DNA of 64,000 bases, from assembly GCA_031366005.1 (NCBI GenBank), contig JANLZB010000068.1, positions 20,311 to 84,310 of the forward strand, read 5' to 3'. Numbering within the stretch: position 1 is the first letter of the stretch; every line of letters starts with the position of its first letter. Source of the stretch: Bacteroidota bacterium. GTDB lineage: Bacteria; Bacteroidota; Bacteroidia; AKYH767-A; OLB10. Shown here one piece after another: positions 3,683 through 41,011 of the stretch. The position numbers and the translations under genes are program-made. The notes below the pieces were generated by a model. That model was not told the DNA's origin and did no database searches. It saw nothing but the letters and a program-made list of their open reading frames with translations.

Positions 3683-4444
3683 ATGGCGAATCCTTCAAGT
3701 ATAAATGTTCAGAACCTCAATGTATATATTGGCGATAATCACATTCTCAAAAATATTAACGTAGAAATTCCTGAGAAAAAGATAACCTGCATAATTGGTC
3801 CCTCAGGATGTGGGAAAACTACTTTATTCAAATCATTCAACCGGTTGCTTGAGAATAATGTTAACACGCGAATAGAGGGTAAGGTTTTAGTGGACGGTCA
3901 GGATATTTATGATAAGAATGCAAATGTTACTTCTATTCGTAAAAAGATGGGTTTGCTTAACCAACGCCCTACTCCACTACCAATGTCAATTCATGCCAAT
4001 GTGGTTTACGGTTTAAAAATACATGGCATACGTGATAAAAAAGTACACGCACAAAAAGTAACACATTATTTAAAGATTGCTTCACTTTGGGATGAAGTTA
4101 AAAACCGCCTTGCTGATCCTGCTTCAGGTCTTTCAATCGGTCAGCAGCAACGGCTTTGTCTGGCAAGAGGTCTGGCAGTGGAACCTTCTATTATACTTGG
4201 TGATGAACCTACCTCAGCGCTTGATCCTATTTCAAGTAAATGGATTGAAGAAAAATTTGTTGAGCTGAAAAATGAATATACCATTATCATGGTAACACAT
4301 ATTCTCCGTCAGGCAAGACGCATTGCTGACTATGTAATTTTTATGTACATGGGTGAGATAGTGGAACATGGACCTGCAATGGAAGTGTTAGAAAATCCTA
4401 AGGAGAAGCTCACACGCGAATATGTGAAGGGTATTATCAGTTAA
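3683..4444 (+). CDS. pstB: Phosphate ABC transporter ATP-binding protein
   Basis: Walker A GPSGCGKT, signature LSIGQQQRLCLAR, DEPTSALDP. Confidence 0.95.
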   Translation: MANPSSINVQNLNVYIGDNHILKNINVEIPEKKITCIIGPSGCGKTTLFKSFNRLLENNVNTRIEGKVLVDGQDIYDKNANVTSIRKKMGLLNQRPTPLPMSIHANVVYGLKIHGIRDKKVHAQKVTHYLKIASLWDEVKNRLADPASGLSIGQQQRLCLARGLAVEPSIILGDEPTSALDPISSKWIEEKFVELKNEYTIIMVTHILRQARRIADYVIFMYMGEIVEHGPAMEVLENPKEKLTREYVKGIIS

Positions 4445-4450
4445 TTTAAT

Positions 4451-4533
4451 GTTTACGATTTACAGTTTATTTTTTACAATTTACAGTTTACAGATATAGA
4501 ATAACAAAAACCGTAAACAGTAAACTGTAAACA
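4451..4533. repeat. Inverted arrangement of 7-bp repeats (TTTACAG ... CTGTAAA)
   Basis: gtttacg/tttacag copies face ccgtaaa/cagtaaa/ctgtaaa copies; the same family occurs near 14741, 23121-23220 and 34659-34688. Confidence 0.6.
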
Positions 4534-14731: not shown

Positions 14732-14803
14732 TCTTTTTTGGTTTACAGTTTAGGGTTTACAGTTTATAGTTGTTGTTTGCATTCATAATTCATAACTCAA
14801 AAT

Positions 14804-15379
14804 TTATAACTTCAACACAAATCTATACGGAAGCAAAGCATCAATACCTGCACTTTCTACGCCTATGCGAGGCCCGAACTTTATATTTTCCTGCTTCACT
14901 TCTATATTTCTGTCTTCAATCCATATTTTTTTACCCAGCAGACTTAATCCCGAATGCTGTTTATCAATTCCCAATGCCTGTGCAACTGTGCCTGGTCCGC
15001 CAGCAAGCGTTTTGTCCACCTGTAATTTATTTCTCCGGTAAAGCATATGATTAATTCCTTCCAATGGTTTTATTGCACGAATCAATATTGCATGTGGTTC
15101 GTCCTTAACATTAGTAACTACATTAAACAAATGATGCATTCCGTAGCAAATATAAACGTAAGATATTCCTCCCTCGCCATACATGTGTTCATTGCGTGCT
15201 GTTCTTTTTCCGCTGTAAGCATGTGATGCACGATCAACAAACCCATTGTATGCTTCTGTTTCTGTTATTATTCCTGAAGTTTTTTTACGGTCAAAATTAG
15301 TAACCAAAACTTTTCCTAATAACTCACGTGCTAACGCAACAACGTCAGTTCTTAAATAAAAATCTTCTGTTAATTTCAT
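14804..15379 (-). CDS. mpg: DNA-3-methyladenine glycosylase (MPG/AAG family)
   Basis: ETEAY, YVYICYGMH, GPG and GPRIG motifs. Confidence 0.93.
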   Translation of the reverse strand: MKLTEDFYLRTDVVALARELLGKVLVTNFDRKKTSGIITETEAYNGFVDRASHAYSGKRTARNEHMYGEGGISYVYICYGMHHLFNVVTNVKDEPHAILIRAIKPLEGINHMLYRRNKLQVDKTLAGGPGTVAQALGIDKQHSGLSLLGKKIWIEDRNIEVKQENIKFGPRIGVESAGIDALLPYRFVLKL

Positions 15380-19407: not shown

Positions 19408-20820
19408 ATGAAGAAACTAAACAAGCTCGTACTTCAGTCTTTCATCGGACCGTTTGTAATGACTTTTTTTATTGCACAATTTGTTTTGCTCATGCAGTTT
19501 CTCTGGAAATACATTGATGATCTCATTGGTAAAGGATTGGATCCGATGGTGGTGGGAGAATTACTTTTTTATACTTCAGCAACACTGGTTCCGCTGGCAT
19601 TGCCACTCGCCATTCTCGTTTCTTCCATCATGACATTCGGGAATCTTGCAGAACATTTTGAAATCACAGCAGCAAAAGCATCCGGTGTTTCGCTGCAAAG
19701 ATTAATGCGTCCTTTATTTATTACTGCAGCTTTTATATGCTTGCTTGCATTTTATTTTTCAAATAATATACTGCCATACACCAATCTCAAAATGGGTTCA
19801 TTGTTATATGATATCCGTCAGCAAAAACCTTCATTGGCAATCCGCGAAGGAGTTTTCTATAATGGAATTGATGGATACAGTATTAAGATTGGCAAGAAAG
19901 ATCCTGATGGCAATACCCTGCACAACGTAATGATTTATGATCACAGTACAGGACAGGGAAATAAAAAAGTGATTGTTGCCGAAAGCGGAAAGATGGAAAC
20001 CAGTGGTGATCAGAAATATTTAATACTCACGCTTTTTAGAGGAAGCAGTTATGAAGAACAGAACAAACCAAAAAACAATTATGATACTCATCCGTTGATG
20101 CGTAATAATTTCAAGGAGTATGTTATTCGTTTTGATCTCTCGCAATTCAAATTAAACCGGACTAACGAAGATCTTTTTAAAGGAGGTCAGCAGATGATGA
20201 ATATCAAACAGTTGACACAATCAGTTGACAGCTTGAATAAACAATATCAAAACCGTCAGGAAGAAATCATACACAACTTTTCACCTTATTTTTTATTTCT
20301 TCGCGATTCAGCAACAACCAAAAATGGTTTTTCAAAAAAAGTTGCATCCGTTTCTTACTTCCCACAGGATAAAGCCACTGATATGATTACAATTGATAAT
20401 GCTTTGAACACTGCAAGAAGTATCAAATCATATATTTCAGGTTGTTATGAAGAGATGGATACACGCAGGTACCAGATTGCGAAATACAATGTGGAATGGC
20501 ATCGCAAACTCACATTGTCTGTTGCATGTTTTATTCTTTTTTTAATTGGCGCTCCATTGGGTGCAATCATCCGCAAAGGCGGCATGGGATTACCTTTGGT
20601 TATCAGCATTGTATTTTTTCTTTTGTATCATATCACTTCCATCACCGGTGAGAAACTGGCTAAAGAAGGAAACATTACTGCATTTAAAGGGATGTGGCTT
20701 TCAACATTTTTTCTTTTACCTGTGGGCATTTTTCTCATTTACAAAGCAACGCATGACTCCATGATTTTTGATACAGAAACCTACAAGAGTTTTTTCAAAA
20801 GAATATTAAGGAGAAAATAG
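19408..20820 (+). CDS. lptF: LptF/LptG family LPS export permease
   Basis: LWKYIDDLIGKGL, FEITAAKASGVS and GAPLGAIIRKGG motifs; 3+3 TM layout; TATTTTTG promoter element at 19383. Confidence 0.9.
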   Translation: MKKLNKLVLQSFIGPFVMTFFIAQFVLLMQFLWKYIDDLIGKGLDPMVVGELLFYTSATLVPLALPLAILVSSIMTFGNLAEHFEITAAKASGVSLQRLMRPLFITAAFICLLAFYFSNNILPYTNLKMGSLLYDIRQQKPSLAIREGVFYNGIDGYSIKIGKKDPDGNTLHNVMIYDHSTGQGNKKVIVAESGKMETSGDQKYLILTLFRGSSYEEQNKPKNNYDTHPLMRNNFKEYVIRFDLSQFKLNRTNEDLFKGGQQMMNIKQLTQSVDSLNKQYQNRQEEIIHNFSPYFLFLRDSATTKNGFSKKVASVSYFPQDKATDMITIDNALNTARSIKSYISGCYEEMDTRRYQIAKYNVEWHRKLTLSVACFILFLIGAPLGAIIRKGGMGLPLVISIVFFLLYHITSITGEKLAKEGNITAFKGMWLSTFFLLPVGIFLIYKATHDSMIFDTETYKSFFKRILRRK

Positions 20821-20840
20821 AATGACGATTAAAAATGAGA

Positions 20841-20983
20841 CGCAGATATGCAGATAAGAACAGATTATTATCAATACAGAATATTGACTGCATTAAGACT
20901 ACTATGATAATTAAATTTTTTTTTCAAAATAAAATTAAGCTTTATAATCTCTATACAATTCTGTTCCTATCTGCAAATCTGCG
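20841..20983. mobile_element. MITE-like element with 23-bp imperfect terminal inverted repeats
   Basis: CGCAGATATGCAGATAAGAACAG versus CTGTTCCTATCTGCAAATCTGCG (21/23 complementary) around an AT-rich non-coding core. Confidence 0.5.
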
Positions 20984-21061
20984 GCAATGTTTCAGATTGT
21001 ACGGTTTTGTGTGGGGGTTTGGAGGGTGCATCATTTGTTTTTTCTTTTCAAATCCATTCAT

Positions 21062-22255
21062 GTGAAAATATTACAGCTTTGTCCACGGGTACCTTTTCCT
21101 CCAGTTGATGGTGGATTGCTTGGTTTGTATAATATGGCAAAAGCACTTCATCACCAGGGAGCAAAAGTAAAGATGCTTGCTTTTAACACTTCTAAACATT
21201 TTGTCAATATCAAAGATGTACCTGATGAATTTGTAAAAACTTATCAGCTCGAAACAGTTTATCTGGATAATAATATCTCGATCTTCTCAGCACTCAAAAA
21301 TCTTTTCAGTAAACAATCATATCATATCAGCAGATTCATTTCCGAAGATTTTGCAAAAGCGTTAATTGCAATTTTAGAAAAAGAAAACTTCGACATCATA
21401 CAGCTCGACTATTTAACAATGGCAGTTTATATTGATGTAATAAGAAAACATTCAAAAGCAAAATTGATTTATCGTGCACATAATGTTGAGTACAGGATTT
21501 GGGAAAGGTTAGCAGAAAGCGAAAATAATTTTGTAAAACGATGGTATTTAAAATTACTTGCGAAACGATTGAAAAATTTTGAATTTGATGTGATTAATAA
21601 AGTTGATGCCATTGTTGCATTAACAGAAGAAGAAACAAAAATTTTCAGAGATATGGGATCAAAGGTTCCTATTTGTATAGCACCAACTTGTTTTTTTATT
21701 GAAGAATTTAAACCTGTTGAATACCCAAAAGAATTTTCATTGTTTCACATCGGTTCAATGGATTGGATGCCGAACACTACAGGATTGAAATGGTTTTTAA
21801 AAGAAGTGTGGACGAAAGTAAATGTAACGCATCCTCAAATTAAATTATATCTGGCAGGCAATAAAATGCCTAAAGAATTTCTTTCACTTAACAATGAAAA
21901 CTGCCATGTGCAAGGAAGGGTTGAAGATGCAAAACAATTTATTGCTGAACATTCGGTAATGATTGTGCCGTTGCTGGCAGGAAGTGGAATACGTGTAAAG
22001 ATTGTAGAAGGAATGGCAATGGGCAAACCCATTATCTCCACCTCACAGGGTGCCGAAGGTTTGCATTACGAAAACAGAAAAAATATTTTGATTGCAGATA
22101 CACCCGAAGAATTTTATGATGCGATTATTGAATGTTATCAATCAGTCGAGTTAAGAAAAACTTTAGGAGAGAACGCAAGACAACTTGCTTTTGAATATTA
22201 TGACATGAATAAAGTGGGAGCAAAAGTTTATTCGTTTTATCAATCGTTATACTAA
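21062..22255 (+). CDS. Glycosyltransferase family 4
   Basis: Probable GTG start (MKILQLCPRVPFPPVDGG); AHNVE and GSGIRVKIVEGMAMGKPIIST motifs. Confidence 0.9.
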   Translation: MKILQLCPRVPFPPVDGGLLGLYNMAKALHHQGAKVKMLAFNTSKHFVNIKDVPDEFVKTYQLETVYLDNNISIFSALKNLFSKQSYHISRFISEDFAKALIAILEKENFDIIQLDYLTMAVYIDVIRKHSKAKLIYRAHNVEYRIWERLAESENNFVKRWYLKLLAKRLKNFEFDVINKVDAIVALTEEETKIFRDMGSKVPICIAPTCFFIEEFKPVEYPKEFSLFHIGSMDWMPNTTGLKWFLKEVWTKVNVTHPQIKLYLAGNKMPKEFLSLNNENCHVQGRVEDAKQFIAEHSVMIVPLLAGSGIRVKIVEGMAMGKPIISTSQGAEGLHYENRKNILIADTPEEFYDAIIECYQSVELRKTLGENARQLAFEYYDMNKVGAKVYSFYQSLY

Positions 22256-22302
22256 AAAAAACATCAGAGCAGAGTGACCTTACGGGGTCACTCTTTTTCT
22301 GA
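22254..22302. terminator. Bidirectional intrinsic terminator (array unit 1)
   Basis: AGAGTGACC/GGTCACTCT stem followed by a T-run on the + strand (ends the GT4 gene) and a T8 tract on the - strand. Confidence 0.6.
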
Positions 22303-22922
22303 CCATCAACCAGAAAAGCTAACCAAAAACCATTTTTCCTTTAGATGTTATTTTATCAGATTCCGGTAGCCTTACGGGGCTACCTTTTATCTGACTTAAC
22401 CATAAACACCTAACCATTAATTTCTTTGCCTTACGGGGCATCGTATTTTGAGAATTTTAACCAGGTATCAGTTCCGGGATAACCTTACGGGGTTACCCTT
22501 CGCCTGATATCATCCTCAAACCCAACTATTTTTAATCTTAGTTTCAGTGTCCGGGTAGCCTTACCGGACTACCCTTCGACTGATTGTTAACCTTAAACCT
22601 AAATCATTCTTTTTTGAGTTTTGTTTCAGGTATCAGTGTCGGGGTAACCTTACGGGGTTACCCTTCATCTGATATCATCCCCAAATCAAACCAAATTTTT
22701 TTGGTGTTTTCAGCAATCAGGTTCCGGGTAACCTTACGGGGTTACCTTTCGCCTGATTATCCACCTAAAACCAAACCATATCTTTTGTGAGTGGTGTTTT
22801 CAGGAACCAGATTCGGGTAACCTTACGGGGTTACCCTTATTCTGATTATCAACCTAAAACCAAACCCAACATTTTAAACTTAAACTTCTTAAGAACGAAC
22901 TCAGCAGTATTTCTTTTGAGTG
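22254..22922 (-). ncRNA. Putative multi-hairpin non-coding RNA array (8 units)
   Basis: Eight CCTTACGGGG-centred hairpins with covarying stems, a TCAG/CTGA outer stem, a candidate minus-strand promoter at 22929-22936 and a T8 tract after the last hairpin; no credible ORF. Confidence 0.65.
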
Positions 22923-23021
22923 TATATACAAGTTTAACATCCTTTCTAAGCTAAAGGTTTTCGGTATTCAGTAATAAATTACAGTTGTAAGGTTTCTCTT
23001 TATTTGGATCGAATACCTACA

Positions 23022-23053
23022 ATCCCTTCAAGGGTTTAAAACCCTTGAAGGGG
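23022..23053. repeat. REP-like palindrome
   Basis: CCCTTCAAGGGTTT-AAAACCCTTGAAGGG; same family as the copy at 18691. Confidence 0.65.
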
Positions 23054-23230
23054 TGAGCATTTAATAAAAACTATCACATCACTATGTAAGAAAAATATGG
23101 ATAGTGTAGTATTAGTTATCAGTTTACGGTTTAATGCTTACCGTTGACTTGCACATTTCATTTATAGTATTTCTAAATCTGTATATAATAACTGTAAACT
23201 GTAAATAGTAAACCGTAAACCCTTTCATCC

Positions 23231-23238
23231 TAACTTTG
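23231..23238 (+). promoter_or_regulatory. -7 promoter element of ribBA (TAACTTTG)
   Basis: Exact TAnnTTTG match 16 bp before the ATG. Confidence 0.6.
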
Positions 23239-23254
23239 CCTTAATAATTTTCCA

Positions 23255-24484
23255 ATGAATAAAGAGAATAAAACCGCTTCCATAAGCACCATTGACGAAG
23301 CAATTAACGATATCCGCCAGGGCAAAATCGTAATCGTAGTGGACGATGCTGATCGTGAAAACGAAGGAGATTTTGTCACAGCATCTCAAAACGCAACTCC
23401 CGAAATAGTAAACTTTATGGCAACTCACGGACGCGGATTAATATGCGTCTCATTAACAGAAGAACGTTGCCGCGAGTTAGACCTGCAGATGATGGTAAGC
23501 ACAAACACCTCCTCTCACGAAACCGCTTTTACTGTCTCCGTTGATCTGCTTGGTCACGGATGCACCACGGGTATCTCTGCACATGATCGTTCCAAAACAA
23601 TCAATGCACTCATAGATAAAGACACACGACCATTTGATCTCGGTCGTCCCGGACATATTTTCCCGCTCAAAGCAAAAACAGGTGGCGTATTAAGAAGAAC
23701 AGGTCACACCGAAGCAAGCATGGATTTAGCACGCCTTGCAGGTTATGAGCCTTCAGGAGTTTTGGTAGAGATCATGAACAAAGATGGAAGCATGGCGCGC
23801 CTGCCTGAGTTGATGAAGCTGGCGAAGCACCACGACATGAAAATAATTTCCATTGAAGACCTTATCAAATACCGTCTCTGTAAAGAATCACTCATCCAAC
23901 GCGAAGTGCAGGTAAAAATGCCAACCAAACTAGGCGACTTCAACTTAGTTTGTTATCGCACCAAGCAAACTGGTCAGGAACATCTTGCCCTCATCAAAGG
24001 CAAATGGAATGAAGATGAGCCTGTTCTTGTCCGCGTACATTCATCCTGTTTAACAGGCGACATATTCGGTTCCTGCCGTTGCGATTGTGGACCGCAGTTG
24101 CAAAAAGCAATGGAACTCATCGAGCACGAAGGCAAAGGCGTCATCGTTTACATGAATCAGGAAGGACGGGGGATAGGACTGCTCAACAAACTTAAAGCAT
24201 ATAAACTCCAGGAGCAAGGTCGCGACACCGTAGAAGCCAATCTCGAATTAGGTTTCGATATGGACGAACGCGATTATGGAGTAGGCGCACAAATCCTCCG
24301 CGATCTCGGAGTCACCAAAATGCGTTTAATGACAAACAACCCAACCAAGCGTGCAGGCTTAATCGGTTATGGTTTACACATCGTTGAAAACGTCCCTTTA
24401 GAAATTCAATCCAACGAACACAACAAACTCTACCTGCGAACTAAGAGGGATAAGATGGGGCATAGTATCAAAGTGGAGGATTAA
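23255..24484 (+). CDS. ribBA: Bifunctional DHBP synthase / GTP cyclohydrolase II
   Basis: [35 protein letters not shown] and QEGRGIG motifs. Confidence 0.97.
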
Positions 24485-24530
24485 TTTATTCACATAAAGA
24501 TTTATATTTGTTTGAAAAACTATTATTAGA

Positions 24531-24761
24531 ATGAAAACTCTTAATTTTCAGAAAGCAATTATTGACGCATTGAAAGATTTGCCGCAGGAAAAACTTAAAG
24601 AAGTTGCCGATTTTATTTCTTCAATTCGCCAAAAGAATTTTAGCAAGAAACCAGATTCGCAAAATTCCATTTACAAATATGTTTCTGAATTAAGTGATAA
24701 TGAAACGAAACATTTGGAAGAAGAGTTTGTTGATTATAAAAAACTTTATCCGCGTGAATAA
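24531..24761 (+). CDS. Putative antitoxin (DUF2281-like)
   Basis: LPQEKLKEVADFI motif; small gene overlapping the downstream PIN gene; TATATTTG element at 24503. Confidence 0.7.
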   Translation: MKTLNFQKAIIDALKDLPQEKLKEVADFISSIRQKNFSKKPDSQNSIYKYVSELSDNETKHLEEEFVDYKKLYPRE

Positions 24762-25146
24762 ATTTGCAGCAGATACCATGGCTGTGGTGCTTTTTCTTGA
24801 GAAAAGGAAACTGCCAAATCTTGTAAAGCAAATTTTTGCGGATGCAAAAAATGGAAATGCGGAAATATACATTCCATCTATGGTTCTTGTTGAGATCGCT
24901 TATCTCAGTCAGAAAAAGAAAATTGAAACTTCGCTTGGAGAGGCAAATAAAATGATTGATTCATATAATACATTCCGGTTTATGCCAATGACCGAAGAAA
25001 TAATCAAATCTACTTTTAAAATAACTGATATAAGAGAATTGCATGACAGAATTATTGCAGGCAGCGCCAAAAATATTGATGCAGAAATTATCACCAATGA
25101 CCCTGAAATAATAAATTCAAAATTTGTAAAAACTGTTTGGAACTAA
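24754..25146 (+). CDS. vapC: PIN-domain (VapC-like) toxin
   Basis: GTG start at 24754 (MNKFAADT); conserved acidic residues in ADT, LVEI, LHDRII and ITND. Confidence 0.85.
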   Translation: MNKFAADTMAVVLFLEKRKLPNLVKQIFADAKNGNAEIYIPSMVLVEIAYLSQKKKIETSLGEANKMIDSYNTFRFMPMTEEIIKSTFKITDIRELHDRIIAGSAKNIDAEIITNDPEIINSKFVKTVWN

Positions 25147-25165
25147 CATCCCTGCAGATTTCCAA

Positions 25166-25429
25166 AATCCTGTTAATCATTTTAATCAAAGTTCAGACAA
25201 CTTTCCTTGTTTCAATCTCATAGCAGTGCAATCCATCCCAAAATACAATCGCGCACAAATTCACACAAATAAATTGTCATTCATTAGGAAACTATTTATG
25301 AGTCACCAACACAGCCTTCTCGCATCACAAGACAATCCTGTTAATCATTTAATCTTATAAATCACAGTTCAGACAACCTTCCGTGTTTAATTCTCATAGC
25401 AGTGCAATCCATCTCAAAATAAATAACGC
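25166..25429. repeat. Two imperfect ~90-bp direct repeats (25166-25252 and 25334-25429)
   Basis: Shared AATCCTGTTAATCATTT..GTTCAGACAAC..CTCATAGCAGTGCAATCCATC..CAAAATA. Confidence 0.8.
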
Positions 25430-25632
25430 CTAAAATACAGGCTTTCTGTAACGGATAAATTCCAAAGCAGCCTGTCAAAACATTTCAGATTAGATCGTAA
25501 ATAATCCTCTTAATTGGAAAGAAGATAAATTTTACATCAATGAATAAAGCTGATTATCTCAATTGATAATTATTAAATTATTACCCGGCTAAAGCAAAAT
25601 AATTATTATAAAAATGATCTATGAATTTCTGT

Positions 25633-26349
25633 TTATAAAAGCTCAAACATATCCTTTACCCCGATACTTCTTTCTGCAACATATCCTTCACCGTAGGTAA
25701 CGCCAATAATGCGTCCCATTTCCATGGCACGTCCATGCACAAATTCCATAAATTCTTTTGTTGAGATCGGTGTAACAGGTTCGCTTGAAGAGGGATCATA
25801 AAATTGAGATTTGAAACATCGTACTGCTTCCGTTTTTTTATCTATAAAAGAAGAAATATCCACCACAATATCAGGACGCATATAACGGTCCTGTATATAA
25901 TGATATACCGCACGTGGTCTCCAGGCAGTTTGTTGTTGATTATTTAATTGTGTTTCTATTTTTCTCAGCCCTGATAAAAAACAAGATTTTGAAATGAGAG
26001 CTGCTCCCATTCCATGGTCAGTATGACGGTCATTAACAGCATTACACAAAACTATTTCAGGCTGATGCAAACGGATATGCCGTATCACTTCCAATTGATG
26101 TTGTTCATCATTTGCAAAAAAGCCATCGCGAAAGCCAAGATTATTGCGGAAAGCAACACCTAATACTTTGGCGCTTTCTGCTGCCTCCCTGTCACGCATT
26201 TCTGCAGTACCTCTTGTACCCAATTCACCTCTTGTAATATCAATGATGCCAACAGTGCGACCTGCAGCGATGTGTTTGAGCAATGTGCCTCCACATCCTA
26301 ATTCAACATCATCAGGATGAGCGCCAAAAGCAAGGATATCAAGTTTCAT
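25633..26349 (-). CDS. bshB1: Bacillithiol biosynthesis deacetylase BshB1 (PIG-L family)
   Basis: AHPDDVELGCGG, TRGELGTRG and RHTDH motifs. Confidence 0.9.
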   Translation of the reverse strand: MKLDILAFGAHPDDVELGCGGTLLKHIAAGRTVGIIDITRGELGTRGTAEMRDREAAESAKVLGVAFRNNLGFRDGFFANDEQHQLEVIRHIRLHQPEIVLCNAVNDRHTDHGMGAALISKSCFLSGLRKIETQLNNQQQTAWRPRAVYHYIQDRYMRPDIVVDISSFIDKKTEAVRCFKSQFYDPSSSEPVTPISTKEFMEFVHGRAMEMGRIIGVTYGEGYVAERSIGVKDMFELL

Positions 26350-28701: not shown

Positions 28702-29737
28702 ATTTTATAATGTTTTGATCAAACTCATTTTGATTGTTAATGAAATAAACTTCTATGGGTAAATAATAGAATGGTAATTTATTTATGTGTGATAACAGCG
28801 CAGCGTCACTTAGGCGCATGGCATCTTTTTCTGTGGTGATAATTATTTTTTTTCCGGATGCAATAGTATTAAAATTTCGTTCTATTAATACAATATCATT
28901 TAGTGTGAAAGGATGATGGTCGGCAAAAGATAATGAAGACACATCGTTACAAACACTTTTTAAAAAATTTAATACGGGTTCAGGATTTGCAATACCTGTT
29001 ACCAATAGCACATCATATTCCTTTAAAGAATTAATTGCAATCAGGGAATGATCATTAATAGCAATAAGATTTCCATATTTCACTCCTGAAAAAAATATTT
29101 GCTGATGCGGCAGCAGATTTATTTTATCCGCATAAGTCTTTTGAACCAAGTTGTTTAAATCATCAGGACACTTAGTCACAATAATTATATCTGCACGTTT
29201 CATTCCGTTTCGCGGTTCACGCAAATTACCTGCAGGCAATAAATAAGCATTGAAATAAGGATGATGAAATTCCGTAAGTAAAATATTTATTCCACCCTTA
29301 ACATAACGGTGTTGAAATGCATCATCTAAAATAATAACTCCTGTTAGCGGATGTTGGGTTTTTATTTTTTCAATGGCTTCTACACGCTTCTCCCCTACTC
29401 CAACAATTATGGATTTTGCAAAACGGTGATAATAAAGCATAGGTTCGTCACCCACATCAACTGCAGTAACATTTTCATCAGCCATTAAAAAACCTTTTGT
29501 CTTTCTTCCATATCCGCGACTGAGTGTTGCAACTTTAAATTGCTCTTTCAGCAGATTAACGAGATAAATAACATGGGGTGTTTTGCCTGTTCCACCGGTA
29601 CTAAGGTTGCCTACTACTATTACAGGGAATGAAAATGATTTTGATGAAAGTATTCCGGCATCAAAAAGTAAATTGCGTAACCGGATTATTATTCCATACA
29701 AAAAAGAAAATGGCAGTAATAAAATCCGTGGCGACAT
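28685..29737 (-). CDS. lpxK: Tetraacyldisaccharide 4'-kinase
   Basis: VGNLSTGGTGKTP, SRGYGR, GDEP, DDAFQH and TTEKD motifs. Confidence 0.95.
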   Translation of the reverse strand: MSPRILLLPFSFLYGIIIRLRNLLFDAGILSSKSFSFPVIVVGNLSTGGTGKTPHVIYLVNLLKEQFKVATLSRGYGRKTKGFLMADENVTAVDVGDEPMLYYHRFAKSIIVGVGEKRVEAIEKIKTQHPLTGVIILDDAFQHRYVKGGINILLTEFHHPYFNAYLLPAGNLREPRNGMKRADIIIVTKCPDDLNNLVQKTYADKINLLPHQQIFFSGVKYGNLIAINDHSLIAINSLKEYDVLLVTGIANPEPVLNFLKSVCNDVSSLSFADHHPFTLNDIVLIERNFNTIASGKKIIITTEKDAMRLSDAALLSHINKLPFYYLPIEVYFINNQNEFDQNIIKYVTKN

Positions 29738-34596: not shown

Positions 34597-34693
34597 ATGA
34601 ACTGTTTATTTTCCGGTTGGTGTTCTTTTTTTCCATCAACCTGTACTATGTCGTAGCAACTGTAAACTGTAAACCGTAAACTGTAAACTTTTT

Positions 34694-40304: not shown

Positions 40305-40958
40305 TTATACAATATTTTTTTTAATCGCCTTTGCTACAGCTTCTGATTTAGAATGCACCTGCAATTTGTTGTAAATATTTTTGATATGACCATTCACTGT
40401 ATCAATGCTGATAAAACAAGTATCGGCAACCATTTTGTAACTCATGCCATCCACAAGGTGTTTTAAAACTTCCTGTTCGCGATTGGTTAAATCATATTCT
40501 TCTCTGACAGCTGTTGTTGAATTGCCTTTAAACATTTTTAAAACCTTGGACGCAATGCTGGGTGTTATGGGTGCACCTCCTTCGTAAATATCACGAATAG
40601 AAGTAATGATTTGTGCAGGTGGTGTGTTCTTTAAGATATAACCTTCTGCACCATTACAGATAGAATCAAAAATTTTATCGTTGTCTTCAAAAATAGTTTG
40701 CATCAGCACTTTTACTTCAGGGAATTTTCCTTTCAGCAACTTCACTGCTTCAATTCCATTCATTCCGGGCATTTCAATATCCATCAATATTACATCCGGA
40801 TTTGTAGCATCAATCTGCATAAGCAATTGGTTGCAATTTGCAAATGCACCACAACAGGTAAAACCATTGCTTCCATTTATCAATTGCTGTAATCCCTGGC
40901 GCAGGTTTCTGTTATCTTCAAAAATCACAACGCGAATATCTCCTGACATGTTATTCAT
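40305..40958 (-). CDS. NarL/LuxR family response regulator
   Basis: REC domain (FEDN, MDIEMP, GYILK) plus LuxR HTH (LTNREQEVL..HIKNIYNKLQV). Confidence 0.93.
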   Translation of the reverse strand: MNNMSGDIRVVIFEDNRNLRQGLQQLINGSNGFTCCGAFANCNQLLMQIDATNPDVILMDIEMPGMNGIEAVKLLKGKFPEVKVLMQTIFEDNDKIFDSICNGAEGYILKNTPPAQIITSIRDIYEGGAPITPSIASKVLKMFKGNSTTAVREEYDLTNREQEVLKHLVDGMSYKMVADTCFISIDTVNGHIKNIYNKLQVHSKSEAVAKAIKKNIV

Positions 40959-41011
40959 TTAAATGGTGGCCCTTTTATCCCTGTGTAAAAATCTATTTGT
41001 TTTCATCAATT

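What the first reader, a model, noticed from the sequence alone, without database searches (positions are those of the whole stretch)
22254..22936. Array of eight covarying hairpins: candidate undescribed multi-unit ncRNA
Seen in sequence: the intergenic region between the GT4 gene and ribBA has eight hairpins with cores at 22278, 22370, 22429 (truncated), 22483, 22559, 22648, 22732 and 22821, mostly 76-92 bp apart. The loop CCTTACGGGG (minus strand CCCCGUAAGG) is identical in seven units and is CCTTACCGGA in unit 5. Stems change by compensatory substitution (GTGACC/GGTCAC, GTAGCC/GGCTAC, GTAACC/GGTTAC). Complete units add an internal loop that is purine-rich on the minus strand (GAA opposite GGA/GAA) and an outer UCAG/CUGA stem. 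Two mismatches (unit 5 inner stem, unit 8 outer stem) are C-A on plus but U-G wobbles on minus. A TAAACTTG -7-like element at 22936-22929 and a T8 tract after unit 1 bracket a minus-strand transcript of about 660 nt. Inference: selection acts on RNA structure rather than on a DNA repeat or a peptide. It could be a protein-titrating sponge RNA (CsrB-like logic) or a precursor processed into ~85-nt RNAs. It is not a canonical CRISPR array, and no effector gene is adjacent.
Basis: partly seen in the sequence, partly recalled or inferred. Interest (0 to 1): 0.88.

Follow-up and report, generated by a model that had tools for sequence, protein, structure and literature searches.

The report
Modular hairpin RNA gene, uncultured Bacteroidia
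The eight hairpins are real and most likely belong to one undescribed non-coding RNA, read from the minus strand and built of repeated modules, that is conserved at a single locus in an uncultured family of Bacteroidia; what it does is still unknown.

Summary
Window 22254-22936 holds seven full units and one truncated unit. Each is a hairpin with the tip CCTTACGGGG (minus strand CCCCGUAAGG), a covarying inner stem, a fixed UCAG/CUGA base and a conserved flank.

It is not a REP element: the genome has the tip only in this array plus one other site. It is not CRISPR and matches no Rfam 15 family.

A covariance model finds the unit at one locus per genome in 67 of 83 genomes of the family, and in 1 of 2 genomes of a sister family. 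The locus always lies between a glycosyltransferase gene and ribBA. Most genomes have two or three units, so this eight-hairpin array is a lineage-specific expansion.

Four lines of evidence point to a minus-strand RNA of about 670 nt:
- Wobble pairs are strand-biased: 42 A·C against 11 G·U when read on the plus strand.
- A two-box promoter-like element, AAC-N16/17-CGTT(T/A)AA, lies to the right of the array.
- A covarying 5' hairpin follows that element.
- A terminator closes the left end.

ribBA has its own promoter next to its start codon.

Function was not settled. My preferred reading is that the modules bind a sequence-specific factor many times over. The main rival is a multi-seed or processed small RNA. 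No RNA-seq data were available.

The parts
22254..22927 (-). Predicted whole transcript, about 670 nt. The 5' end is inferred from the promoter-like boxes and the 3' end from the terminator.
   Evidence: Inference. No RNA data were available.
22953..22961 (-). -35-like box. It reads AAAACCTTT on minus, with the AAC core at 22957-22959. The family consensus is (g)cGAACCTTA.
   Evidence: 33 of 44 unique loci have AA(C) 16-18 nt upstream of (C/T)GTT(A/T/C)A, and 28 of them have AAC. The spacer is constant in length and variable in sequence.
22932..22939 (-). -10-like box. It reads TGTTAAAC on minus; the family consensus is CGTTTAAA.
   Evidence: A passage in PMC9723704 describes a CGT box at -10 as an ECF hallmark in a flavobacterium.
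22899..22921 (-). 5' hairpin (ACUCA...UGAGU) just after the predicted start.
   Evidence: Hairpins of different sequence sit at the same place in other genera, as read from the rows.
22889..22898 (-). Conserved single-stranded UCGUUCUUAA (plus strand TTAAGAACGA).
   Evidence: Alignment and sequences.
22798..22882 (-). Unit 8, module type C. The hairpin is 22806-22846 and the GU-rich flank (minus) lies to its right.
   Evidence: Covariance model hit of 90.4 bits.
22708..22793 (-). Unit 7, type C.
   Evidence: 94.1 bits.
22624..22708 (-). Unit 6, type C.
   Evidence: 92.8 bits (G000:C57:42934-43018).
22535..22620 (-). Unit 5, type C, with tip variant UCCGGUAAGG on minus.
   Evidence: 86 bits; variant.
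22459..22539 (-). Unit 4, type C.
   Evidence: 77.2 bits (G000:C57:42769-42849).
22427..22440 (-). Unit 3: a short hairpin carrying only the conserved tip (UGCCCCGUAAGGCA). It is conserved next to the type B module in other genera.
   Evidence: L010, L012, L015, L017.
22347..22431 (-). Unit 2, module type B.
   Evidence: 76.7 bits; flank shared with other genera.
22255..22340 (-). Unit 1, module type A (flank ...CCAGAAAAGCTAACCAAAAACC on plus).
   Evidence: 78.3 bits; flank shared with L010, L012, L053, L055 and L067.
22254..22302 (-). Terminator: the unit 1 hairpin (22263-22302) followed on minus by G and U8 (22261-22254). The U-run overlaps the TAA stop (22253-22255) of the convergent glycosyltransferase gene.
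   Evidence: The leftmost hairpin has a run of 5 or more A on its left in 17 of 44 loci, against 9 of 103 for other hairpins. Canonical terminators lie further left in others and in L118.

Best explanation
This is a gene for a non-coding RNA of about 670 nt read from the minus strand. In most relatives the RNA is about 300-450 nt.

Transcription would start about 10 nt downstream of a conserved two-box promoter-like element, AAC-N16/17-CGTT(T/A)AA. That element has the architecture of an alternative, ECF-type sigma promoter, not of the housekeeping TAnnTTTG box. Transcription would end at a hairpin plus U-run beside the stop codon of the convergent glycosyltransferase gene.

The RNA is modular. 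After a 5' hairpin and a conserved UCGUUCUU come repeated modules. Each module is a conserved GU-rich single-stranded stretch (consensus ..uuuggUu.G.U..uUuaGGUUGAu..) followed by a two-part hairpin of about 42 nt. The hairpin base (UCAG/CUGA) and tip (CC-CCGUAA-GG) are fixed in sequence. The stem between them changes freely by compensatory substitution. A purine-rich internal loop separates the two stems.

Shown: the structure, its conservation, its strand bias, the single locus and the copy-number changes.

Inferred: that the RNA acts through many equivalent binding sites. Each module would be one binding site for a sequence-specific factor, most likely a protein or nuclease that reads the fixed tip and the fixed base at a set distance. 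The RNA would then titrate, scaffold or be cut by that factor when the alternative sigma factor is active. Module number (1 to 8) would set its capacity.

My odds: about 0.85 that this is a minus-strand non-coding RNA gene. The confidence given for this explanation (0.45) is for the multivalent-binding mechanism.
For: RNA-level selection: in 89 distinct units from many genera, 7 of 8 inner-stem pairs change on both sides and 95.9% of cells are paired. 0 of 500 shuffles reach the covariation score.

Fixed tip: 83 of 89 units have CCCCGUAAGG on minus. The variants keep U·G or U-A at the closing pair and GUAA or GUGA in the loop.

Fixed base: CG 88 of 88, AU 87 of 87 and GC 84 of 87.

Strand:
- Read on plus, the helices hold 42 A·C against 11 G·U. 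That gives 92.7% standard pairs on plus and 95.5% on minus. An ungapped count on 126 hairpins gives 28 against 8.
- The two-box element with constant spacing lies on minus in 33 of 44 unique loci.
- In the complete genome G095 the left neighbour is itself a minus-strand gene, and the array's left end is a canonical terminator.
- The leftmost hairpins carry the U-run on minus.

Independent gene: ribBA has an exact TAnnTTTG box 10-60 nt before its start in 44 of 46 rows.

One locus, vertical descent: all model hits in a genome lie together. The unit is found in 67 of 83 family genomes and 1 of 2 in a sister family, with the same flanking genes.

Copy number changes independently. Searches show:
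- own genus: 5-7 units
- G053: 6 units
- G081: 4 model hits and 7 tips
- G029: 5 near-identical units
Against: No transcription data: no listed run is RNA.

The promoter-like motif is unique to this locus. Each of five relatives has one exact match at the array; the three further matches, in two of them, lie inside coding sequence. The own genome gives the same picture. So no regulon or autoregulated sigma operon supports the ECF reading (one search was inconclusive).

The box also resembles a housekeeping -7 box with 1-2 mismatches.

No partner is known. CsrA and Hfq are not found in this genome. RRM-1 proteins occur in only 17 of 83 family genomes and in none of the 35 genomes of genera g7, g22 and g11 that mostly carry the RNA.

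Thermodynamics does not separate the strands. Hairpins average -20.0 kcal/mol on plus and -20.5 on minus. The whole region has z = -8.5 on plus and -4.9 on minus.

Some features also suit the plus strand: U-runs after several hairpins, and a UACG-type tip if the U·G pair closes.

The family counts include related genomes that are not independent, and one unpublished genome (G058).
Confidence: 0.45

Rival explanations
1. It is a multi-seed base-pairing small RNA, or a precursor cut into RNAs of about 85 nt. Each module would be a GU-rich 5' seed followed by a protective 3' hairpin, and would pair with A/C-rich mRNA sites. This is the architecture described for GibS/FopS in Bacteroides.
For: The GU-rich stretches are conserved in sequence and predicted to be unpaired.

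The same genome has at least 4 copies of a ~55-nt element made of a related GU-rich stretch plus a terminator. Three of the four sit behind an exact TAnnTTTG box, so they look like small RNA genes of the seed-plus-terminator type.

Passages of PMC11697453 describe FopS as a single-stranded 5' seed plus terminator hairpin that targets SusC-like mRNAs.
Against: 8-mers complementary to the conserved stretch are not enriched in -60..+12 windows of 2790 crude gene starts; 106 to 179 of 167 to 200 permuted words score as high. 14-mers with up to 2 mismatches hit at background level. The one perfect 12-nt site before a start codon belongs to a gene with no homologue in 82 relatives. A simple seed model does not explain the fixed loop and fixed base of the hairpin. 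My gene starts were crude, so the test is weak.
Confidence: 0.3
2. It is a plus-strand element: the 3' UTR of the glycosyltransferase operon, or tandem guide RNAs (hairpin scaffold with a conserved guide at the 3' end) for a nuclease-dead Cas12f/sigma-E system encoded elsewhere.
For: Flanking genes are on plus. The units are about 85 nt, tandem and similar. Passages of PMC13472631 describe 85-105-nt guide RNAs, sometimes tandem, with a stem-loop and a conserved guide at the 3' end. Several hairpins are followed by U-runs on plus.
Against: The wobble bias runs the other way. In G095 there is no upstream plus-strand gene, and a terminator would stand at the start of such a transcript. There is no exact TAnnTTTG on plus upstream of the array, except in 1 of 46 rows. 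No Cas12f1-like TNB domain is found in the genome, and no rpoE-cas12f genes are adjacent. The paper's guide models are in figures and supplements that I could not see.
Confidence: 0.05
3. It is a DNA-level repeat: binding sites for a DNA-binding protein, a recombination or REP-like element, or replication slippage with no RNA function.
For: It is tandem and variable in copy number. Both strands can form the hairpin.
Against: The genome has 8 tip matches, 7 of them here. The locus is inherited in one syntenic place across 20 or more genera. Stems covary while keeping their pairing. The mismatches are strand-biased toward G·U on one strand, which double-stranded DNA recognition does not predict.
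Confidence: 0.05
4. It is a regulator of the neighbouring ribBA gene, such as a riboflavin-responsive leader or a divergent antisense regulator, standing in for the missing FMN riboswitch.
For: ribBA lies 270-550 nt to the right in every locus that reaches that far. No FMN riboswitch is found in this genome.
Against: ribBA has its own proximal TAnnTTTG promoter, and the RNA is read away from it. The FMN riboswitch is missing from 145 of 146 genomes of the whole order, including families without this RNA, so its absence is not linked to the array. Variable module number does not suit an aptamer.
Confidence: 0.05

Closest known systems
CsrB/RsmZ-type protein-sponge RNAs
   Same: One transcript displays many copies of a short hairpin-borne motif. 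Copy number varies between lineages. A dedicated regulated promoter and a terminal terminator frame it.
   Different: The loop motif is CCGUAA, not GGA. CsrA is not found in this genome. Each module also has a fixed stem base and a conserved GU-rich flank. The partner is unknown.
GibS/FopS small RNAs of Bacteroides (PMC11697453, passages read)
   Same: Same phylum. They lack Hfq and CsrA. They have a G/U-rich single-stranded stretch followed by a hairpin.
   Different: FopS are separate genes of one module each, ending in a plain terminator, and are bound by the RRM-1 protein RbpB. Here the modules are chained in one transcript, the hairpin has a fixed tip and base, RRM-1 proteins do not co-occur, and no Rfam family matches at E up to 10.
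Sigma-E-dependent small RNAs of enterobacteria (MicA, RybB, MicL; recalled)
   Same: A non-coding RNA behind an ECF-type promoter would tie its expression to an envelope or stress signal.
   Different: Those are single-seed, Hfq-dependent RNAs. The ECF assignment here rests only on box architecture.
Tandem guide RNAs of dCas12f/sigma-E systems (PMC13472631, results and legends read)
   Same: Bacteroidota. Units of about 85-105 nt that can be tandem and near-identical. Stem-loop plus a conserved single-stranded part.
   Different: The guide is 3' of the scaffold, which would need the plus strand here. The guides lie next to rpoE-dcas12f, and neither that gene pair nor a Cas12f TNB domain is found.
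CRISPR arrays and REP/BIME elements
   Same: Regularly spaced hairpin-forming repeats.
   Different: The 'spacers' are conserved within the array and between genera. The repeats diverge by compensatory change instead of being identical. There are no cas genes nearby. The element sits at one locus and is not dispersed.

Membership tests
Any Rfam 15 family | Covariance-model match at or near the gathering score | tested here: not met
   One search scanned 20000-26000 on both strands at E up to 10. It gave 11 weak matches, none at its gathering score and none fitting the units.
REP/BIME | Many copies dispersed through the intergenic regions of the genome | tested here: not met
   8 tip matches in 3.68 Mb, 7 of them in this array; all model hits in a genome lie at one locus.
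CRISPR array | Near-identical repeats separated by unique spacers | tested here: not met
   the inter-hairpin segments are conserved between units and genera, and the hairpin stems differ between units.
CRISPR array | Associated cas genes | tested here: not met
   the neighbours are LptF/G, a glycosyltransferase, RibBA, a PIN-domain protein and a PIG-L protein; no Cas12f1-like TNB domain in the genome. Other cas families were not searched.
CsrB/RsmZ sponge | GGA motifs in hairpin loops | tested here: not met
   the loop is CCGUAA in 87 of 89 units.
CsrB/RsmZ sponge | CsrA/RsmA present in the genome | tested here: not met
   no PF02599 match in a genome that is 99.3% complete.
FMN riboswitch | Match to RF00050 upstream of a riboflavin gene | tested here: not met
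   no match in the window region or anywhere in the genome.
dCas12f guide RNA array | Encoded beside rpoE-dcas12f, or dCas12f present elsewhere in the genome | tested here: not met
   However, dCas12f is C-terminally truncated according to the paper, so a missing TNB domain is not proof of absence.
dCas12f guide RNA array | Match to the published scaffold covariance model | not testable with these tools
   The model and its sequences are in figures and supplements that I could not see.
FopS/GibS | Match to the Rfam model said to have been deposited by the authors | tested here: not met
   no such match; the deposit is stated in the paper.
ECF-sigma-dependent promoter | AAC at -35 and CGT at -10, 16-17 nt apart | tested here: met
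   28 of 44 unique loci have AAC, with spacing 16 in 23, 17 in 9 and 18 in 1. The window itself has TGT in place of CGT.
ECF-sigma-dependent promoter | The same motif upstream of the cognate sigma/anti-sigma operon or other regulon members | tested here: not met
   no convincing second site.

The most novel reading that the evidence does not exclude
The RNA is the titrating or scaffolding half of a post-transcriptional system not yet described in Bacteroidota, a phylum without CsrA or Hfq. An unknown protein or nuclease would read a CCGUAA hexaloop and a UCAG/CUGA stem base at a fixed distance. Under an alternative sigma factor it would be sequestered, or loaded with GU-rich guides, by a chain of 1 to 8 modules. 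The same GU words occur in the 3' UTRs of several mRNAs, including a sigma-70 paralogue, and in a multicopy ~50-nt small RNA. This would make the hairpin RNA the hub of a shared GU-motif network.
Probability: 0.25. Interest if true: 0.85.

Novelty: new variant of a known kind. Interest (0 to 1): 0.6.

Why it matters
Bacteroidota lack the RNA chaperones that organise small-RNA regulation in model bacteria, and few of their regulatory RNAs are understood. This is a strongly covarying RNA with a fixed locus, a dedicated non-housekeeping promoter, modular build and repeated independent copy-number expansions. It occurs in a family known only from metagenomes of sludge, groundwater and freshwater.

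It offers a ready covariance model for annotating these genomes. It also gives a sharply defined RNA bait, with a fixed loop and a fixed base, for finding a new RNA-binding protein or processing enzyme.

If the function turns out to be an ordinary stress small RNA, the value is mostly annotation.

Tried and rejected
RNA evidence: the look-up of sequencing runs listed 6 runs, all DNA and none on record as RNA. Read laying was therefore not used. No RNA holder was listed.

Rejected readings:
- REP.
- Rfam membership.
- FMN riboswitch or ribBA leader.
- CsrA or Hfq partner.
- RRM-1 partner: found in 17 of 83 genomes, present in genera g6 and g8 that lack the RNA and absent from g7, g22 and g11 that have it.
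- dCas12f guide array.

ECF regulon:
- Regex scans of the own genome gave 14 loose hits. The two best lie inside paralogous coding sequence.
- The exact motif in five relatives gave one hit at the array in each, plus three more in two of the genomes, all inside coding sequence.
- The regions upstream of 14 sigma-70 r4_2 genes showed no clear copy.

Target search: 14-mers with up to 2 mismatches hit at background. There is no enrichment at crude gene starts. One lipoprotein 5' UTR site is not conserved.

Folding energies do not separate the strands.

6S RNA: no 6S-Flavo hit, though the controls for that search did not ring either. A weak RF00013 candidate lies elsewhere, so this RNA is not needed as a 6S stand-in.

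Sigma-70 paralogue 3' UTR: GU words are found in 9 of 30 rows, and single 7-mers are not enriched in 3' UTRs. This is a lead only.

Literature: three searches for a described equivalent found none. Supplements were not consulted and may hold guide-RNA or small-RNA lists that bear on this.
Full report
**1. What is in the sequence**

Between the stop of a glycosyltransferase gene (ORF 20987-22255, plus strand; GT1/GT4 Pfam domains) and ribBA (23255-24484, plus strand; DHBP synthase and GTP cyclohydrolase II) lies a tandem array.

- There are seven full units and one short hairpin.
- All carry the tip CCTTACGGGG. Unit 5 has CCTTACCGGA.
- The 10-mer occurs 7 times in the window against 0.04 expected by chance.
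- In the whole 3.68-Mb assembly it occurs 8 times: 7 in this array and one in a terminator-like hairpin on another contig.
- The element is therefore not dispersed like a REP.
- Rfam 15, scanned on both strands at E up to 10, gives nothing that fits.

**2. The unit**

Read on the plus strand, each full unit is:
- (A/G)TCAG
- 3-5 nt
- an inner stem of 8-10 bp
- the tip
- the complementary stem
- 4-6 nt
- CTGA(C/T)
- a C/A-rich stretch of about 25 nt

**3. Relatives**

- A blastn search of the array hit 24 of 41 related genomes.
- A covariance model built from the seven window units (R1) hit 61 of 83 genomes of the family and 20 of 23 genera. All hits in a genome lay side by side at one place.
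- A second model built from 150 hits (R2) found the unit in 67 of 83 family genomes, counting this one. In the other families of the order it hit 1 of 54, 0 of 1, 0 of 4, 0 of 2 and 1 of 2 genomes.
- These tallies include one unpublished genome, G058. Related genomes are not independent samples.
- All named records that hold the unit are metagenome-assembled Bacteroidia from sludge, groundwater, freshwater and similar sources.
- The locus is syntenic. ribBA lies to the right, on the same strand as in the window, in 15 of 19 first loci and in every later locus that reaches that far. A glycosyltransferase lies to the left in most.
- G029 is the carrier in the sister family. It has LptG, the glycosyltransferase, a degenerate first hairpin, five near-identical model-hit units 86-87 bp apart, and ribBA further on.

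**4. Covariation**

On the model alignment of 89 distinct units:
- 92.7% of cells form standard pairs.
- 7 of the 8 inner-stem pairs show changes on both sides, in 137 cells.
- 0 of 500 shuffles reach the covariation score.
- Sliding the partner by one to three columns lowers pairing to 21-50%.

By contrast, three pairs at the base never or almost never vary: CG 88 of 88, AU 87 of 87 and GC 84 of 87. The tip is CCTTACGGGG in 83 of 89 units. The hairpin is thus fixed in sequence at both ends and free in between.

**5. Module types**

Reading the alignment, the flanks fall into three kinds:
- A type A flank ending the array on the left (window unit 1).
- A type B flank that is followed by the short tip-only hairpin (units 2 and 3).
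- A type C flank (units 4-8).

Most genomes give two or three model hits. The eight-hairpin array of this genome is therefore an amplification of the type C module.

Other amplifications:

| Genome | Units |
|---|---|
| Own genus | 5-7 hits |
| G053 | 6 hits |
| G081 | 4 hits, 7 tips |
| G029 | 5 near-identical units |

**6. Which strand**

Five lines agree on the minus strand.

(a) Non-Watson-Crick cells are biased. Read on plus, there are 42 A·C against 11 G·U, so pairing is 92.7% on plus and 95.5% on minus. At least one A·C occurs in 29 of 46 locus ids and at least one G·U in 9. An independent ungapped count on 126 hairpins gives 28 against 8. The tip variants tell the same story. On minus, the closing pair goes from C-G through U·G to U-A, and the loop keeps GUAA or GUGA.

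(b) About 100-150 nt to the right of the last unit lies a conserved element. Read on minus it is (g)cGAACCTTA, then 12-13 variable bases, then CGTTTAAA. A form of it is present in 33 of 44 unique loci, 28 of them with AAC. AAC-to-CGT spacing is 16 in 23 loci, 17 in 9 and 18 in 1. Constant spacing with a free spacer is what a two-box promoter looks like. It is not what a hairpin looks like.
- AAC at -35 and CGT at -10 are the marks of ECF sigma promoters (recalled).
- A passage of PMC9723704 uses the CGT box in this way for a flavobacterium.
- In the window the boxes read AAAACCTTT (22961-22953) and TGTTAAAC (22939-22932).
It can also be read as a housekeeping -7 box with one mismatch, so the sigma factor is not settled.

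(c) Just downstream on minus there is a hairpin whose sequence differs between genera (read from the rows). A conserved UCGUUCUU follows it.

(d) The left end carries a terminator for minus. In the window this is the unit 1 hairpin followed by G and U8. The leftmost hairpin has a run of 5 or more A on its plus-strand left side in 17 of 44 loci, against 9 of 103 other hairpins. In six of ten loci that I looked at without such a run, a canonical GC hairpin with a U-run follows further on.

(e) In the complete genome G095 the left neighbour is itself a minus-strand lipoprotein gene, and a canonical terminator stands at the array's left end. That is sensible only for a minus-strand RNA.

Against this:
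- Folding energies do not separate the strands.
- Several hairpins also have U-runs on plus.
- No RNA data exist.

I put the minus strand at about 0.85.

**7. Not a ribBA leader**

- An exact TAnnTTTG box stands 10-60 nt before the ribBA start in 44 of 46 rows. In the window it is at 23231-23238.
- The FMN riboswitch is missing from this genome. It is also missing from 145 of 146 genomes of the order, whether or not they have the RNA.
- The link to ribBA therefore looks like inherited gene order.

**8. Function**

The genome has no CsrA and no Hfq.

It has one RRM-1 protein. RRM-1 is the family of RbpB, which binds GU-rich small RNAs in Bacteroides (PMC11697453; passages read). But RRM-1 proteins occur in only 17 of 83 family genomes. 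They are absent from all 35 genomes of genera g7, g22 and g11, which mostly carry the RNA, and present in g6 and g8, which do not. RRM-1 is therefore not the general partner.

Tests for base-pairing targets were negative but crude.

Two leads came out of the target search:
- Related GU words (AGGUUGGUUAGG and similar) stand between the stop codon and the terminator of several genes. One of these is a 287-aa sigma-70 paralogue, and the words recur in its orthologues in some other genera.
- At least four copies of a ~55-nt element consist of such a GU stretch plus a terminator. Three of them sit behind an exact housekeeping promoter box. They look like a multicopy small-RNA family, and they have no Rfam match.

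GU-rich single-stranded stretches next to hairpins are therefore a recurring theme in this organism.

The family has 2-6 copies of the sigma-70 paralogue per genome. The five genomes of g6 and g8, which lack the hairpin RNA, have one copy. This involves few and related genomes, so it is a lead only.

**9. Judgement**

The fixed tip and fixed base on a freely covarying stem, the chaining of modules and the repeated copy-number changes fit multivalent binding of a sequence-specific factor best. That factor could be titrated, scaffolded or act as a processing enzyme. The GU stretch may be part of that site or may be a pairing seed. A multi-seed or processed small RNA is nearly as likely.

The tandem guide RNAs of dCas12f/sigma-E systems (PMC13472631; results and legends read) look similar in size and arrangement. 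They would need the plus strand and a Cas12f-like gene, and neither is supported.

**10. Novelty**

- No Rfam family matches.
- Three literature searches found no description.
- The carriers are uncultured.
- This is a new RNA family of a known general kind, a modular regulatory RNA, with an unusual build.

Noticed in passing
G000 contigs C9:~40940-41000, C10:~14960-15020 (reverse), C24:~134385-134450, C40:~29360-29420 (loci L156-L159): At least four copies of a ~55-nt element: a GU-rich stretch (AGGTTAGGTTGGTTAGG) followed by a GC hairpin and a T-run. Three of them have an exact TAnnTTTG box 5-7 nt upstream. They look like a multicopy ~50-nt small RNA of the 5'-seed-plus-terminator type. There is no Rfam match at E up to 1.
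   Followed up: partly
G000 C24:55004-55030 (locus L123/L125), C32:27645, C33:45395, C54:28056: The words AGGTTG(A/G)TTAGG stand between the stop codon and the terminator of several genes, including a 287-aa sigma-70 paralogue. Similar words follow its orthologues in some other genera (9 of 30 rows).
   Followed up: partly
family-wide: Genomes of this family carry 2-6 paralogues (65-83% identity) of a 287-aa sigma-70 protein. The five genomes of genera g6 and g8, which lack the hairpin RNA, have one.
   Followed up: no
window 22979-22992: The inverted repeat TTACA-N3-TGTAA(G) lies between the RNA's promoter-like boxes and ribBA and is conserved in many genera. Further TGTAAG copies lie closer to ribBA. 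It may be a transcription-factor site.
   Followed up: no
window 23174-23220; also 4443-4493, 14740-14771, 34658-34689: Short tandem runs of a 7-mer (AACTGTA, or GTTTACA on the other strand) recur in intergenic regions. One run lies just upstream of the ribBA promoter box.
   Followed up: no
window 23024-23052: A perfect 14-nt inverted repeat with a 1-nt gap (CCCTTCAAGGGTTT/AAACCCTTGAAGGG) between the RNA gene and ribBA.
   Followed up: no
order-wide: The FMN riboswitch (RF00050) was found in 1 of 146 genomes of the order, so riboflavin genes here are regulated some other way.
   Followed up: partly
G000:C49:125231-125405 (-), locus L155: A weak full-length match to 6S RNA (RF00013, 28.5 bits, below the cut-off). 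It is a possible divergent 6S RNA.
   Followed up: no
window 24694-25146: A PIN-domain ORF of 150 aa lies downstream of ribBA, preceded by a 76-aa ORF (24531-24761). This may be a toxin-antitoxin pair.
   Followed up: no
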